A DNA stretch of 64,000 nt. Source: Dysidea avara. Its lineage: Eukaryota. Position numbers and translations under genes: made by a program. Below are positions 2,641 to 58,300 of this stretch, in pieces (the first letter of the stretch is position 1; each line of letters begins with the position of its first letter). The stretch lies in assembly GCF_963678975.1 (NCBI RefSeq), contig NC_089285.1:12087725-12151724 (forward strand), given 5' to 3'. The notes beneath the pieces are model-generated. The model saw only the letters and a program-made list of their open reading frames with translations. It did no database searches and was not told the origin of the DNA.

Positions 2641-2805
2641 GAGTAAATAAATTAGCTGAATGCTCTATTAGGGTGACTGTTCTATTAGAGTATCTCGATC
2701 TCGCATTTGCTACACGGAGTTGACTTTCGAATAATAATTCAGTGGTTTGTAATCCGATTCTTCTATACTACTGCAAGGACTTTCTATGAAGATTATTCCA
2801 GCTAA

Positions 2806-3028
2806 GGTAAATGCGGGTATTTCCGGACAGCGTACAATTCCGGACACTTTGGTACCTTTATCAAGCTAGCCGAGGAACGAAACAACGGATTGCCTTGAAA
2901 TTTCTGCTGTGAATAGCTATTCTTATAGGGATTATAAAAATCGAAAAGTGTGTTCTAGTTGATTCATTCTTGGGTGCTATACACGAAGTGTCCGGAATTG
3001 TGCGCTGTCCGGAAATACCCGCATTTAC
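2806..3028. repeat. Near-perfect 44-bp inverted repeat (GGTAAATGCGGGTATTTCCGGACAGCGTACAATTCCGGACACTT and its reverse complement) separated by about 135 bp
   Basis: Read directly from the sequence with one mismatch. The flanking region 3045-3270 also has two about 35-bp direct repeats (..AAGCGGTTTRCCYWSTRGCGTGA..). Confidence 0.8.
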
Positions 3029-4794
3029 CTTATACACCGATTTTCAGCTCATTGCTCTAAGCGGTTTGCCTACTGGCGTGAAAACTAATACTTTTTTATT
3101 CATAAAAATCAATCGCGTAATTGTGACACAGGTTCGGTTTTGTGTCATATCTCCGTGGTCTTTATCTCGATTCCTTTCAAACCACCAAAAGGCACTCCTA
3201 CGATGTTTGCGCCATCTACATAGCAATTTTCAACTCATTCCATGAAGCGGTTTACCCTGTAGGCGTGACAACAAATCGATCTTGTTTTACGCAAATAATC
3301 GGTCATAACTCCTGAACCATTTATCGGATTTGCACCAAATTTGATGCTAGGATTCGCCTTTGGACTCCCTTTCTGCGTGCCAAATTTCAAGGCGATCGGA
3401 GTACGCGTTTGCGTTTTATAGCAATTTATGCAAGCGTGCGAAAACACGAAGAAGAAAACGAAGAAAAAAATTGAAACTTTGGCAGCTCGTATGAGTCGTA
3501 TCTCGGAAATGGCTGGAGCGATTTCCTTCACATTCGAAATGTAGACTCCTCTGGCTGGTAGGAAACCCTGTAGCAAATTTGGTTCCAATAGGATAAGGGA
3601 TCACCAAGATACAAAGGTGTGCAAATGACGTTTGCTTTCTTTCTGTAAATATACTCACGGTGTGGAGCGCCGGCTTCTTGGGCCGCACGACATACCGTGT
3701 GTCTTGATATTAGAATTATAATAACAATAATAATTATTATTATTACTAGGACCGCACTACATACAAAACCAAGTACATGTATCAACATGACAACCTAACA
3801 CCAGAGCAAGGCATAGACAGTGTGTATCTACCACACTGTTTACTGAAGAGAATAAAACACGTAACAATACATGACTGTTAGACTACTCTATTAAAGTATA
3901 TTGATCTGTGCAAATTTGAAAGCTGGACACACAGAGCTAAACAGGCAATTAAGTGTGTGTTCTTATTGACTGACTGCTCTATTAGAGTATCTCTACTATG
4001 CAATGCAACAAACTTACTTCCACCCTTCTTACAACTGTAATTTTAAAGATTCGTGCAATCAGCAGTACTGCTCTTTCTTTTAAGTCATGAAGGTCACACA
4101 TACCCTACATTATTAGAATATTTACAAAAACACATGGCAGCTTTGTAAGGTGGCATGCAATGATTAATTTTACAGTGAATGTACAACTGCAGATAGGCTG
4201 ATTTGATATTGAGTATATACATGGGTAGCGCGAAACTATGTGGCTATGAACTAAGCAAGGGGTCAGTCACATTCTGAAATTTTGTACAAGTCTTTTAAAA
4301 TTAATTAGAAATTAGAAATTTTGGTCTGAATTTTGAAAGTTTTGGCCTAAATCTTTTCATTAGCGCATGCCCCGCTATTGTCCTGTCCCACTTTTGGAAG
4401 AGCCCTGAGCTGCTGACAAGTTTTTCTTAAACTTTTCCTACTTATTGCAAACACTTGTAACGATGAAACACTCATTTTTAGGGATGTGGCGATTATGCTG
4501 GCATAATTTCAGGCAATATAGGTATAGTTATGCTAACCAGTTTGTGGTGTTTATCATAGTAAAGTTTTAACAATAGGAAAATCTGCAGATTGGCGATTGC
4601 ACAATTCCATTTAAGAAGATCAAGATACTCTAATAGAGCAGTCGCTGAATATTATTTACTCTAATAAAGCAGTCACATTGAAATGAAATACTCTAATACA
4701 GCAACCAGCTAAAGAATTCAAGACTACTTGAAGCTTAAACACATCAATGAATATGGTCTGATACAGCAATAAGAGCCAATTATGGTGGCATAAT

Positions 4795-55181: not shown

Positions 55182-55365
55182 TTTTGTCAACGTTGTGTTG
55201 CATGACATACTTTTCAGATTGTCAGATGACCACAACTGAATTCCACTCAATGAAAATGCATTTAATAATTCATAGAACACACCAATAATTATTGTACAGC
55301 ATAAAAAACCAGCATGACTAACTGATATTTTTAACTCTCGTATGATATAAATACAACACACACAG

Positions 55366-58300
55366 TTATTCAACGGTGACCGATTTGGCTAGATGTCTAG
55401 GACAATCAACCTGTAGAGCAACAGCAAATAGTAACACAACAATCTACACTGATACTACTGGTACTCACATCATAGCCTTTGAGAACTGCTATGTGGAATG
55501 ACAAAAGTTGTAAGGGTAATACGGAGAGAATGCCTTGTAAACAATCTGCCACCTTAGGAATCTAATGGCAACATGTGATATCCATTATAGAATGTGATAT
55601 AGTATAGAGTTACCTTTAAACAGTGAAATGCTTTCTTTTCAATGTCTGTATCATCTTTATCACAAATTATAATGGGTCGTCCCTACAATAAGATCTAATC
55701 ATACACACACTGACACATTACAAGCCAACTTACAGCTCTTGCAGTCACCTGTTCTAAAGCATTAATACATTTCTACATGAGGGAAAGACATACACAATGT
55801 TATCCCACTACACAGAACAACTCACGGTGTATGTATTATCCTTCATGATGATCATAATCACTGGCATCTTAGTATCAATCATGGCTAGTGGTCCATGCTT
55901 TAGTTCCCCAGAGAGGATGCCCTCAGAATGAAGGTAGGTCAGCTCCTTGATTTTCTACAACAGCAGGCTGTAAAGAGCAATGTTACAAGTGTTGAACTGA
56001 CCAGGGCTCCTTCTAGACATGTAGCAAAGTTGAAGCCTCTGCCCATGACAATCAGGCTTTTCTCGTTGTACAGAGATTTGGCCAATTTCATTATCTCGCT
56101 ATCAAGTTTGAGTACCTCCTTGATGTATCCTAACAAATAGAGTACTTGACATGTCCATTTAGTAGTGTATTGTTAATAAAATTGTTAACCTTAACAACAC
56201 ATGGTCATTCACAATCATTTCACAAAACTGAGCCCAAAGTTGCTCCAACAAATAAAATCAGTTTGCACAACTGTACATCGATCCACCTCTTTAGTGGGTA
56301 CAGTACATTTTTATAGTGACCAGTACACCATCGTTGTGGCATGCATGTGTTAAGTATAATACAGTATACAAAGACAATCTAATAGAACAGTCAAGCATAG
56401 AAACATTGATACAAGTAGATATTCTAATAGAACAGTCGAAATATATAGACATTGTCTGTTTAGAAGTGAACTAGACCCATGCCTGTTCACACTGACACAC
56501 AAGAACACAATGCATACCTGACAGATTTTTCAGGTCATTTATAATTTCTTTTCTTCGTTGCTGCATTGATATCCTATCAGCACTCATCACCAGGCCTACC
56601 ATCACCAGTGACACAAACTGACTGGTATAGGCCTATGAGCCAAACAACAGCAGTAACACAACAGACAAGTATGTATTATACACAAGTTCACCTTGGTACT
56701 GGCTACTCCAATCTCTGGACCAGCATTAATGTGTACCCCACAATGTGTATCCCTTGAAATAGTGCTACCAACTAACCATCAAAATCATTATAAAACATAA
56801 TAGTCTACTTCAGTGGCACCTATAACTTACCAGTATTAGTGATGCCTACACAGAGAGCTCCACGTGGCTTGCAGTACCTTAAAGCATTTAAAGTATCTGC
56901 TGTCTCTCCTGCACAATAAACAGTTACTAGAATGAATAAACACATGTACACCTTACCTGACTGGCTGACAAAGAAAACTACGTCATCTCGGAATATGGGA
57001 ACACTTCGATCAAGAAAGTCTGATGCCAGCTCAACCATAACTGGCATCTCTGTCAGCTCCTCTAGTAACTGTCGTGTCTAATAATAGGATCAGCTACAAA
57101 TGAACATCAGTACACTTTGTGGTTGGGTACTCACAGCTAAGGTACTGTGATAGCTGGTACCACATGCTATGAACAGAAGCCTCCGAGCCCTTCTCATTGT
57201 AGAGATGTGGTCCTTTAGTCCTCCCAATACAACTATGTGTGAACCAGGATACCACTAATGTTATGTATTACATACAAATACAGTCATGACACACCACACC
57301 ACACACACCACACACACAACACACACCTGTTTCTGTAGTGAAATTCACTCTACCTCTCATGGTATTCACAACACTTTCAGGTTGTTCAAATATTTCCTTC
57401 TGCATGAAGTAGTCATAACTACCTATGTGTGAGAGGGAAGCTTTGTAAAATTGCTGGAGTATATGGTAGAATTAAATATACTTACAGTACCCTATGGATA
57501 CCAGTGGATAGAAACATACAGTGGAACCTCAAGTGATTGGGACCCACTCTACCTACACAAGGCTATGCAGGAACAGATAGTTATCAGGACCTTACGTACA
57601 TAAAAGCAGAGGCCAAGGTGTGTAACTACACACAGAGCCATTTTTAATGTTATCAATCATTTATACTATTACAGCATCAATATGGTTGAAGGTTCCACCC
57701 AGTAGTTACACCTTCTAACCTTTCATGATCTCCTGCAGTTTCATCTTCAATGTGTGTATTTCCCTTGAGTGTAGTATATCACTCTCTCCCTTCTTGAGGT
57801 GATGAATGGACAGAGCTATACAACACATCATACACACATTAAAGGAATGGACTGTCATTAATAAGGCTTCCAAACTTTACAAGGCTCCCAAACTTTACAC
57901 CTTTAATGGTTGTACTAACAATATAACATCATGTTGGTCTCATATCACAACTGATACAACATACTTCCAGTAGCATCCACAGCAGCCACATCATCATCCT
58001 CCAGATAGATCACTCTGTTGGTATGTTCTATGATGGCACTGTGGAAGATGGTAACACTCATGACAACCCCTTAGCTATGGCCAAAGCTCATAATATTCGT
58101 GTGGGGAACTCCTCTCTTATACTATGTGTTTTTACTAGTTAAGGAAGCATTTGGGGTCAAGTTAAGGAAGCTGGTTTTTTGGGTGATATTTTTTAAGTTA
58201 CAAAAACCATGATCCCTAATACTACCGTACTGTATGATAACTTACCTAGCATCAGAAGCAAAGAAGTACTCCATGGACATGTCTTGTAACTGTCTGTCAA

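What the first reader, a model, noticed from the sequence alone, without database searches (positions are those of the whole stretch)
2660..56450. A 20-bp motif (GATACTCTAATAGAGCAGTCAC) dispersed more than 30 times in 64 kb, in both orientations, often in tandem pairs or triplets
Copies or near-copies occur at about 2663, 2680, 3881, 3965, 4620/4655/4690, 5025, 7180, 7922, 8069, 8320, 8850/8878, 10092/10128/10160, 21418, 22305, 24778, 25808, 27692, 28985/29015, 37150/37168, 40127, 40770/40795, 44817, 45052/45068, 50528 and 56385/56428. It forms the tip of the 90-bp TIR of the element at 7169-8093. It is also an internal tandem subrepeat of unrelated MITEs (9971-10222, 37056-37253) and the 3' portion of repeat family A. 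The same short motif appearing in structurally different elements, and as solo copies in introns and intergenic DNA, suggests either a transposase or host-factor binding site shared across families, or a very abundant, extremely short mobile unit.
Basis: seen in the sequence. Interest (0 to 1): 0.6.

Follow-up and report, generated by a model that had tools for sequence, protein, structure and literature searches.

The report
Short sequence module shared by many transposons
A roughly 20-base sequence really is scattered about once every 2 kb through this animal genome, mostly as a built-in piece of many different small transposable elements rather than as the worn end of one family; its function is still unknown.

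Summary
The window has 37 copies at ≤6 mismatches, against about 0 in shuffles. Five contigs of the same genome have 74 copies in 164 kb. The conserved core is TACTCTAATAGAGCAGTCA (19 bp). The first copy of an array is often preceded by AAGATCGA, and later copies follow at 17-45 bp steps.

It is not the terminus of one MITE family. It lies inside the shared sequence of at least 8 repeat families. Four of these have the end repeats and target duplications of different DNA-transposon superfamilies: hAT-like, Tc1/mariner-like, PIF/Harbinger-like and Mutator-like. That excludes a binding site for a single transposase.

The "90-bp TIR tip" is wrong. That element has about 240-bp arms, and the motif sits about 140 bp inside them.

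In family B, an ~840-bp element without terminal inverted repeats, the leader plus motif forms the 3' end.

Best reading, at moderate confidence: a cis-acting module carried by non-autonomous elements, spread by hitch-hiking and local duplication. It probably began as an end-proximal signal of non-TIR elements. The mechanism is not proven.

Three samples from other animals that share only the MVP gene or the LINE family lack the motif. A fourth carries a variant inside a MITE.

The parts
2656..2702 (-). Leader (GAGATCGA) plus two motif copies overlapping at a 17-bp step. This is the 3' end of family B copy 1 and abuts the 31-bp satellite.
2656..3708 (-). Family B copy 1. About 840 bp without terminal inverted repeats, plus a nested MITE at 2807-3030. 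The 5' end is ATCAAGACACAC and the 3' end is the leader plus motif.
3879..3900 (-). Motif copy with 5 mismatches, preceded by the leader AGATCAA.
3970..3991 (-). Motif copy with 1 mismatch. No paralogous flank was found in the sample.
4616..4708 (+). Leader AAGATCAA plus three motif copies at 31-32 bp steps.
5019..5040 (-). Motif copy in a variant of family A (homologous segment 4837-5041). Similarity to the other A copies ends at the motif boundary.
7032..8598 (.). Family D, a Mutator-like non-autonomous element with arms of about 240 bp and a 9-bp target duplication. It holds a LINE C-terminal fragment (about 7290-7712). Motif copies lie at 7175-7196(-), 7769-7790(-), 7919-7940(+) and 8070-8091(+).
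8105..8453 (.). Family A copy 1, a hAT-like MITE with TIR CAGGGCC and an 8-bp target duplication (CTTCAGCC/CCTCAGCC). The motif is internal at 8321-8342(-).
8623..9025 (.). Family A copy 2, with an 8-bp target duplication (CCAATATA). Two motif units lie at 8844-8865 and 8872-8893(-), as a 28-bp tandem duplication that includes the GATC leader.
9973..10219 (.). Family C, a Tc1/mariner-like MITE with TA target duplication and TIR CAGTAGGACCTC. Three motif copies lie at 10089-10173(+) at 31-32 bp steps.
18632..18653 (-). Doubtful copy with 6 mismatches.
21415..21436 (+). Motif copy at the junction between a family B 3' region (upstream) and a further repeat, 'F' (downstream to about 21610). The same composite occurs at L022 13440-13720.
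22301..22322 (+). Motif copy with 2 mismatches.
24779..24800 (+). Motif copy with 5 mismatches.
25812..25833 (-). Perfect motif copy. No paralogous flank was found in the sample.
27692..27713 (-). Motif copy with 4 mismatches.
28986..29040 (-). Leader (GGTGTACAAGATCGA, resembling the family B 3' region) plus two motif copies at a 25-bp step. It lies about 700 bp upstream of the major vault protein start codon.
37059..37251 (.). Tc1/mariner-like MITE with TA target duplication and TIR CAGTGGAACCTC. Two abutting motif copies lie centrally at 37149-37190.
40126..40147 (+). Motif copy with the leader CTTTCAAAATCGA, which is related to the family E leader.
40524..40904 (.). PIF/Harbinger-like MITE with TAA target duplication and TIR GGCCACTCCAATT. 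The leader GGATCGA plus two motif copies lie at 40760-40814(+).
44139..44838 (+). Family B copy 2. The motif at 44817-44838 lies at its 3' end.
45045..45087 (+). Two abutting motif copies, exactly where a palindromic MITE ('J', about 44895-45044) is truncated. The intact copy is at L021 217-560.
50538..50557 (+). Degenerate copy with a 3-bp internal deletion (ACTACTCTAATTGCAGTCAT).
56373..56439 (+). Two motif copies at a 45-bp step.
1324..2655 (.). 31-bp satellite (also at 1-250) that abuts the motif copies at 2656/2673. Its last unit is intermediate between the two, but the consensus is not significantly similar to the motif.

Best explanation
What it is. The motif is a lineage-specific, polar sequence module. 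It has a 19-22 bp core (TACTCTAATAGAGCAGTCA). In about 40% of arrays an 8-bp leader, AAGATCGA, precedes the first copy only. The core is often repeated 1-3 times at 17-33 bp steps. It belongs to the consensus of many different non-autonomous transposable elements.

Shown:
- It multiplies mainly as a passenger when its host elements transpose. These are hAT-, Tc1/mariner-, Harbinger- and Mutator-like MITEs and several elements without terminal inverted repeats.
- Its local copy number changes by tandem duplication.

Inferred:
- It is a cis-acting recognition element that element lineages retain.
- Its original home is the 3' end of non-TIR elements such as family B. Family B has a sharp 5' end with a hairpin, internal ~190-bp repeats, and a 3' end made of leader plus motif, a layout like HINE/Helitron elements.
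- There it would act as an end or termination signal.
- Short 3' fragments and read-through chimeras then placed it at module junctions and inside the progenitors of MITE families, which amplified it.
For: Abundance across the genome: 74 copies in 163.7 kb from five contigs of the same assembly.

Embedded in multi-copy families at fixed positions.

Four superfamily signatures. Family A has 8-bp target duplications in 3 of 3 copies. Family C and the 37059 MITE have TA. The 40524 MITE has TAA. Family D has 9 bp with 240-bp TIRs.

Family B. Five 5' ends start sharply at ATCAAGACACACGGTAGTGTGTC. Four 3' ends finish at the leader plus 1-2 motif copies, and the flanks then diverge.

Polarity. The leader comes only before the first copy. 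Retention of B-, E-, A- and H-type upstream sequence is graded from 5 to 45 bp.

Motif at junctions between modules:
- A versus the A variant.
- The B|F composite, found at two loci.
- The palindromic MITE J, truncated exactly at the motif.

Conservation. Motif columns are better conserved than the rest of the element in family A (96% vs 82%), and also in C, E and F. The core is 16/16 identical in a MITE from another sample whose flanks no longer align.
Against: No autonomous partner was seen: no Rep/helicase or reverse transcriptase with this end.

The family B ends show no significant subterminal inverted repeat.

The Helitron 3' terminal tetranucleotide CTRR (R = A or G) follows the motif only in B copies and one other array, about 4 of 19 leader-bearing arrays (read).

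The 5-1-5 palindrome CTCTA-A-TAGAG is not maintained by compensatory changes (Fisher p = 0.45). That argues against a required hairpin.

Most copies lie inside TIR elements or in contexts I could not classify.

Upstream and downstream flanks are equally often repetitive: 23 versus 26 of 51 arrays.

Copies in family D arms decay at the same rate as their flanks.

The conservation test is partly biased, because several families were found through the motif itself.
Confidence: 0.35

Rival explanations
1. Binding site on double-stranded DNA for an abundant sequence-specific protein, either a host factor or an accessory factor. Transposon lineages of any superfamily would keep it because it helps them, for example through accessibility or synapsis. 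Alternatively the host has co-opted it.
For: The core is sharp-edged and 19 bp long. Clusters of same-orientation copies have variable 17-45 bp spacing, and both orientations occur. The motif is independent of the transposition machinery. It is better conserved than its flanks in families A, C and E, and is conserved in another sample's MITE. Some positions are nearly invariant (TAATA, CA, CA) while others are free, and there is no hairpin covariation.
Against: No protein or binding data exist. Copies in family D arms decay neutrally. This reading does not explain the one-sided leader, the 3'-terminal position in family B, or how a 30-bit motif moved between families. The position-specific variation may simply reflect founder variants of a few families.
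Confidence: 0.22
2. Neutral cargo. An abundant minisatellite-like unit of 17-32 bp was picked up as filler or by recombination at deletion and rearrangement junctions when MITEs formed. It then simply hitch-hiked, with no function.
For: The motif sits centrally in MITEs, where internal-deletion junctions lie. It occurs at rearrangement junctions. Copy number varies in tandem between paralogous copies: 1 versus 2 in family A, 2 versus 3 in family C. Published precedent exists for tandem repeats riding in MITE 'cassettes' and for a satellite-transposon network (PMC3879986, PMC5139131, PMC7492417).
Against: The motif is better conserved than surrounding transposon sequence in several families and across samples. 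No long pure array of the unit was seen in 164 kb. The adjacent 31-bp satellite is not significantly related.
Confidence: 0.18
3. 3' tail of a retroposon system: a 'stringent' LINE and its SINE-like partners. Solo copies would be extreme 5'-truncated insertions, and the tandem units would come from reverse-transcriptase slippage at the tail.
For: The 3' boundary is sharp and the 5' boundary is soft and graded. The motif lies at the 3' end of family B and of the 73-bp module shared at L033 13553 and 15052. Reiteration is on the 3' side.
Against: The only LINE family seen ends in GAGGTTTTACACAG(AAT)n, not in the motif. No target-site duplications or A-rich tails surround young solo copies (flanks). 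Family B copies are all full length rather than 5'-truncated. Several families conserve sequence downstream of the motif.
Confidence: 0.1
4. The bare 20-30 bp unit is itself mobile: an ultra-short element, or a patch inserted at DNA breaks.
For: Perfect or near-perfect copies have no recognisable repeat context in the sample, for example 25812, 3970 and L034 18134. Edges are sharp.
Against: No consistent target duplications, terminal repeats or insertion-site preference. No filled-versus-empty case was found. The one presence/absence difference between paralogous family D copies looks like a deletion of one arm. Several apparent 'solo' copies turned out to belong to families once more sequence was sampled.
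Confidence: 0.05
5. All copies are fragments of a single high-copy MITE family.
For: Some contexts share extra sequence next to the motif: the AAGATCGA leader, and AGTATTC downstream in families A and E and in two other contexts.
Against: Flank information content is near zero beyond about 8 bp. Only 8 of 61 copies share the A/E-type upstream sequence and 6 of 61 the downstream sequence. The host elements have four different TIR and target-duplication types.
Confidence: 0.02

Closest known systems
Tandem-repeat-containing MITEs and the satellite-transposon 'network' of bivalves (DTC84/pearl elements; Cg_HINE carrying Cg170-like repeats)
   Same: Short arrays of a repeat unit sit between the flanking 'cassette' sequences of non-autonomous elements. 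Copy number varies between copies. Single units and short arrays are dispersed across the genome. Transitions at the junctions are abrupt (PMC3879986, PMC5139131, PMC7492417).
   Different: Those units are about 160 bp and are carried by one superfamily (Helentron/HINE). Here the unit is 17-32 bp with a 19-bp conserved core, and it is found in elements of at least four TIR superfamilies plus non-TIR elements.
HINE/DINE-1 (non-autonomous Helentrons) and Helitron family structure
   Same: Family B has no terminal inverted repeats and no detectable target duplication. It has a hairpin 3 nt from its 5' end and internal tandem repeats. A short palindrome lies 7-11 nt from its 3' end. Different bodies share the last ~30 bp, which is how Helitron families are defined (PMC4067079 for the hallmarks).
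   Different: The 12-15 bp subterminal inverted repeats are not detectable. There is no TT or T-rich insertion signature. CTRR is present only in some B copies. The palindrome shows no compensatory changes. No Rep/helicase partner was seen.
Host-factor binding sites spread by transposons. Examples from my own knowledge: the Su(Hw) site cluster in gypsy, CTCF sites in rodent B2 SINEs, E2F sites in Brassica MITEs.
   Same: A discrete site of about 20 bp occurs in homotypic clusters inside mobile elements and as many dispersed single sites. The expansion is lineage-specific.
   Different: In those cases one element family carries the site and the binding protein is known. Here many unrelated families carry it and no binding protein is known.
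Subterminal transposase-binding repeats, such as the Ac/Ds hexamers and the IR/DR sites of Sleeping Beauty type elements (own knowledge)
   Same: Repeated short motifs lie near element ends, and in family D they are inverted on the two arms.
   Different: Such repeats are specific to one transposase. This motif occurs in elements with hAT-, Tc1/mariner-, Harbinger- and Mutator-type ends, and on one side only in families A and C.

Membership tests
Terminus of a single MITE family | Copies share family sequence beyond the motif on at least one side | tested here: not met
   Flank information content is about 0 beyond 8 bp. Flank clustering gives at least 8 separate families plus unassigned copies.
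Binding repeats of one transposase | Confined to elements with one type of TIR and target-site duplication | tested here: not met
   Four types are present: 8-bp target duplication with CAGGGCC TIR; TA with CAGTRGRACCTC; TAA with GGCCACTCC; 9 bp with 240-bp TIRs.
Binding repeats of one transposase | Symmetric, inverted placement near both ends | tested here: not met
   True for family D arms and its inner inverted repeat. In families A and C and the Harbinger-like MITE the motif is on one side only.
LINE/SINE 3' tail | Identical to the 3' end of a reverse-transcriptase-encoding LINE in the genome | tested here: not met
   The only LINE family found ends in ...GAGGTTTTACACAG(AAT)n. Other LINEs in this genome could not be searched.
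LINE/SINE 3' tail | Target-site duplications flank the copies, and copies are 5'-truncated | tested here: inconclusive
   No consistent target duplication around solo copies (flanks). Leader retention is graded, but family B copies are full length.
Helitron (canonical) | 5' TC preceded by host A; 3' hairpin followed by CTRR; insertion between A and T; no target duplication | tested here: inconclusive
   Family B shows A|TC in 5 of 5 copies. CTAA, CTGA or CTTA follows the last motif in 3 of 4 copies. Overall, CTRR follows only about 4 of 19 leader-bearing arrays.
Helentron/HINE | 12-15 bp subterminal inverted repeats | tested here: not met
   The best complementarity between the family B ends is no better than in shuffles.
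Helentron/HINE | Short palindrome 8-35 bp from the 3' end, inverted repeat near the 5' end, internal tandem repeats | tested here: met
   Family B has CTCTA-A-TAGAG 7-11 nt from its end, GACACAC-GGTA-GTGTGTC at its 5' end, and an internal ~190-bp duplication. However, the palindrome is not kept by compensatory changes.
Helentron/HINE | Rep/helicase(/endonuclease)-encoding partner with the same ends; TT insertion sites | not testable with these tools
No such ORF lies in the 164 kb sampled, judging from the gene lists.
Tandem-repeat-containing MITEs | Array of repeat units between conserved MITE flanks, with copy number varying between copies | tested here: met
   Family C has 3 units at 10089-10173 and 2 units in the copy 7 kb right of the window. 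Family A has 1 versus 2 units.
Derivative of the adjacent 31-bp satellite | Significant similarity between the satellite consensus and the motif unit | tested here: not met
   Local alignment scores fall within the shuffle range. Only the last satellite unit looks intermediate.
Known structured RNA or tRNA-derived element | Match to an Rfam family or a tRNA model | tested here: not met
   No Rfam hit at the gathering threshold in the window. No tRNAs. Only chance-level hits at E ≤ 10 in family B and F regions.

The most novel reading that the evidence does not exclude
The 19-bp core is the recognition site of an abundant sequence-specific DNA-binding protein, or of an as-yet undescribed break-repair or insertion process. 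Its sites have been recruited independently by transposons of at least four superfamilies and by non-TIR elements. That would give this animal on the order of one site per 2 kb, a genome-wide, lineage-specific cis-regulatory or architectural network built by many transposon families at once.
Probability: 0.15. Interest if true: 0.75.

Novelty: new variant of a known kind. Interest (0 to 1): 0.42.

Why it matters
Transposons are known to carry and scatter short functional sites, and MITEs are known to carry tandem repeats. Usually one family carries one cargo. Here a single ~20-bp module is shared by non-autonomous elements that depend on at least four unrelated transposases, and it is also the end of a non-TIR element. 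It occurs about once every 2 kb in this one genome sample, and rarely or not at all in the four samples from other animals that I could examine.

If the module is a cis-signal, whether an end signal or a protein-binding site, it offers a tractable case of sequence modules being exchanged among transposon superfamilies and then amplified. If it is neutral cargo, it is a practical warning for repeat annotation: this motif will wrongly link unrelated families in automated libraries.

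Tried and rejected
1. LINE 3'-tail idea. The family D element contains a LINE C-terminal fragment. Related, more complete LINEs in other samples end in (AAT)n, about 55 bp before the nearest motif copy in D. Rejected for that LINE.

2. Origin from the adjacent 31-bp satellite. 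The consensus similarity is not significant.

3. Copies elsewhere. Exact-core scans of JGI metagenome contigs and of viral contigs gave only single, chance-like or prokaryotic coding hits. Full-text searches for the motif and for four TIR strings found nothing relevant.

4. More family A copies through a spurious ORF spanning the motif. The protein search found no candidates.

5. Identifying the organism. The contig is ctg11867l (5.77 Mb) of ENA metagenome assembly ERZ25068803. Cluster look-ups gave no names. The major vault protein exon is at most 74% identical to any other entry apart from partial matches. I can say only that it is an animal.

6. Hairpin requirement. No covariation in the palindrome.

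7. Upstream versus downstream asymmetry of repetitive flanks, which an end-signal model predicts. None was seen at this sample size.

8. Subterminal inverted repeats in family B. Not significant.

9. Pfam scan of 10 window ORFs, including a 174-aa ORF at 13292-13816 that looked hAT-like by eye. No hits.

10. A second short motif, GTACTTGGTTGTAT, in other samples. It has conserved flanks and is an ordinary element terminus, not a parallel phenomenon.

Full report
**1. The observation**

The 22-mer GATACTCTAATAGAGCAGTCAC has 17 matches at ≤3 mismatches, against none in 100 shuffles. It has 37 at ≤6 mismatches, against 0-1 in shuffles. The 14-nt core has 29 matches at ≤1 mismatch, with 0.07 expected. 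All listed positions hold a copy. The one near 50528 has a 3-bp deletion.

When all copies are aligned on the motif, information content is high only for positions 2-20 (TACTCTAATAGAGCAGTCA). It drops to about zero on both sides, apart from a weak upstream ATC[GA]A.

**2. Where the window comes from, and wider sampling**

The window contains a major vault protein gene, with exons between 29741 and 34401. It is part of contig ctg11867l (5.77 Mb) of ENA metagenome assembly ERZ25068803, so it is an animal contig in a long-read metagenome. I could not name the species.

Using ORFs as handles, I fetched 9 kb on each side of the window and four 20-kb loci on other contigs of the same assembly. Together these 163.7 kb hold 74 copies in 51 arrays, or 0.45 per kb. 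The motif is therefore genome-wide in this organism, not a local feature.

Loci from other samples, which share the vault gene or a LINE family with this genome, gave:
- 0 copies in 20 kb (L012).
- 0-1 copies in each of two 20-kb loci (L024 and L025).
- Two good variant copies in L023 (AAGATCGA-AACTCTCTAATAGAGCAGTCGA-8 nt-AAACCTCTAATAGAGCAGTCAG). They lie inside a MITE with CAGTGGCGGATC TIRs whose remaining sequence does not align with anything in this genome.

Scans of JGI metagenome contigs and viral contigs found only chance-like single hits. The literature search found nothing.

**3. Anatomy of the contexts**

Self-comparison and flank clustering show that the motif is a fixed part of many distinct repeats.

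| Family | Type, as judged here | Evidence | Position of the motif |
|---|---|---|---|
| A | hAT-like MITE | TIR CAGGGCC; 8-bp target duplications in all three full copies (8/8, 7/8, 8/8) | Internal |
| C, and the 37059 MITE | Tc1/mariner-like | TIR CAGTRGRACCTC; TA duplications | 2-3 tandem copies, central |
| 40524-40904 | PIF/Harbinger-like | TIR GGCCACTCC; TAA duplication | Two copies, internal |
| D | Mutator-like | ~240-bp TIRs; 9-bp duplication, 9/9 in L022 | About 140 bp inside each arm; two further inner copies |

- The window copy of family D spans 7032-8598 and is interrupted by a family A MITE.
- Family D also holds a LINE C-terminal fragment. Related LINEs in other samples end in (AAT)n, so that LINE's tail is not the motif.
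- Further families carry the motif: E, F, G, J and a 73-bp module shared at L033 13553 and 15052.
- Several apparent 'solo' copies proved to belong to families once more sequence was available. Examples are 21415 and 40126.

**4. Family B**

Family B is an element of about 840 bp without terminal inverted repeats (window 2656-3708 and 44139-44838, L034 3150-3983, L022 12801-13549, plus a 5' fragment left of the window).

- All five 5' ends begin sharply at ATCAAGACACACGGTAGTGTGTC. This contains the hairpin GACACAC-GGTA-GTGTGTC, and its first 12 nt resemble the leader plus the start of the motif.
- All four 3' ends finish with AAGATCGA plus one or two motif copies, after which the flanks diverge.
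- The element contains an internal ~190-bp duplication.

This layout matches published HINE/Helitron hallmarks (PMC4067079, PMC7492417) in these respects:
- a 5' inverted repeat;
- internal repeats;
- a short palindrome 7-11 nt from the 3' end;
- host A before TC in 5 of 5 copies;
- CTAA, CTGA or CTTA after the motif in 3 of 4 copies.

Against membership: the defining subterminal inverted repeats are not significant. CTRR (R = A or G) is absent after most other arrays. No Rep/helicase partner was seen.

**5. Polarity and junctions**

- The leader AAGATCGA precedes the first copy of an array only. Later copies follow at 17-33 bp steps, and the minimal unit is TCTAATAGAGCAGTCAC.
- Upstream sequence related to the B, E, A or H leaders is retained over graded lengths of 5-45 bp.
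- The motif often sits where unrelated modules meet. Family A and its variant diverge at the motif edge. A B-motif-F composite recurs at two loci. A palindromic MITE is truncated exactly at a motif pair. The 31-bp satellite meets family B at two motif copies.

**6. Constraint**

- In family alignments the motif columns are more alike than the rest of the element in A (96% vs 82%), C, E and F, but not in family D arms (89% vs 88%).
- Families C, E and F were found through the motif, so only the A and D comparisons are unbiased.
- The core is perfectly conserved in the MITE from the other sample.
- The palindrome CTCTA-A-TAGAG shows no compensatory substitutions. One-sided changes at positions 12 and 14 are common, and Fisher p = 0.45. 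A hairpin requirement is therefore not supported.

**7. Interpretation**

Settled with good confidence:
- The motif is real, abundant and lineage-specific.
- It is not the worn terminus of one MITE family.
- It is not one transposase's binding site.
- It is amplified largely by hitch-hiking in many non-autonomous elements, plus local tandem duplication.

Inferred, at about 0.35: it is a cis-acting module whose primary context is the 3' end of non-TIR elements such as family B. From there, short 3' fragments and read-through chimeras carried it into the progenitors of MITE families.

Rivals:
- a protein-binding site kept by transposon lineages or by the host (about 0.22);
- neutral minisatellite-like filler (about 0.18);
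- a retroposon tail (about 0.10);
- a bare mobile unit (about 0.05);
- a single MITE family (about 0.02).

**8. Comparison with known systems, and verdict**

The nearest precedents are tandem-repeat-containing MITEs, HINEs and the satellite-transposon network in bivalves, and transposon-borne factor-binding sites. This case differs in two ways: the unit is very short, and it occurs across at least four TIR superfamilies as well as non-TIR elements. I rate it a new variant of a known kind, of moderate interest. A whole-assembly repeat analysis would settle most of the open points.

Noticed in passing
window 29741-34401 (+): Major vault protein gene. ORFs at 29741-30220 and 31735-32343 carry Vault and MVP-shoulder domains, and the exons align at 75-90% with a locus from another sample (L012). 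There is no motif copy between 29033 and 37148.
   Followed up: partly
window 1-250 and 1324-2655: 31-bp satellite, consensus TAGCTGAACTCTCTACAGGGTGATTTGTTTG, about 42 units with higher-order 61/123-bp periodicity. It ends exactly at the 3' end of a family B element.
   Followed up: partly
window 2807-3030: A small MITE with ~40-bp perfect-looking TIRs (GGTAAATGCGGGTATTTCCGGACAGCG...) nested inside family B copy 1. The paralogous copy at 44139-44838 lacks it.
   Followed up: no
window 7290-7712; L025 7355-10560: C-terminal fragment of a LINE ORF2 (LDKVQRSAANF...LWNNLP) captured inside the Mutator-like family D element. In another sample the same LINE family is nearly complete (endonuclease and reverse-transcriptase domains) and ends in (AAT)n.
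   Followed up: yes
window 21480-21560; L022 13590-13680: A segment with tRNA-like box A/box B strings (TAGCAGTGGTT...GGTTCGAACTCGGG followed by TTTTT on the minus strand) inside repeat 'F'. ARAGORN and Rfam do not call it.
   Followed up: partly
window 20341-20961: Composite tandem repeat of 186/242 bp containing long (TACA)n tracts.
   Followed up: no
window 13292-13816 (-): A 174-aa ORF that looks like the central part of a hAT-type transposase by eye, flanked by 87%-identical direct repeats (11509-11704 and 14731-14924). Pfam gave no hit, so this is unverified.
   Followed up: partly
window 44895-45044; L021 217-560: A palindromic (foldback-like) MITE, 'J'. It is intact in L021 but truncated at its centre in the window.
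   Followed up: partly
L023 10467-17888; L024 10362-15056: In other samples a different 14-nt string, GTACTTGGTTGTAT, recurs 9 times per 20 kb. It has conserved flanks, so it is the terminus of an ordinary repeated element, often in head-to-head pairs. L023 also carries an apparently intact 857-aa pogo-type transposase gene (12369-14942).
   Followed up: partly
window about 53980-55180 (L019 1016-2215): Exons with EF-Tu domain 2/3 and eEF1A C-terminal matches, so a translation-GTPase gene. Not examined further.
   Followed up: no
L034 11798-12076: ORF with a weak Mutator-transposase Pfam match, 1.6 kb from a family D (Mutator-like) fragment. It could be a remnant of the autonomous partner.
   Followed up: no
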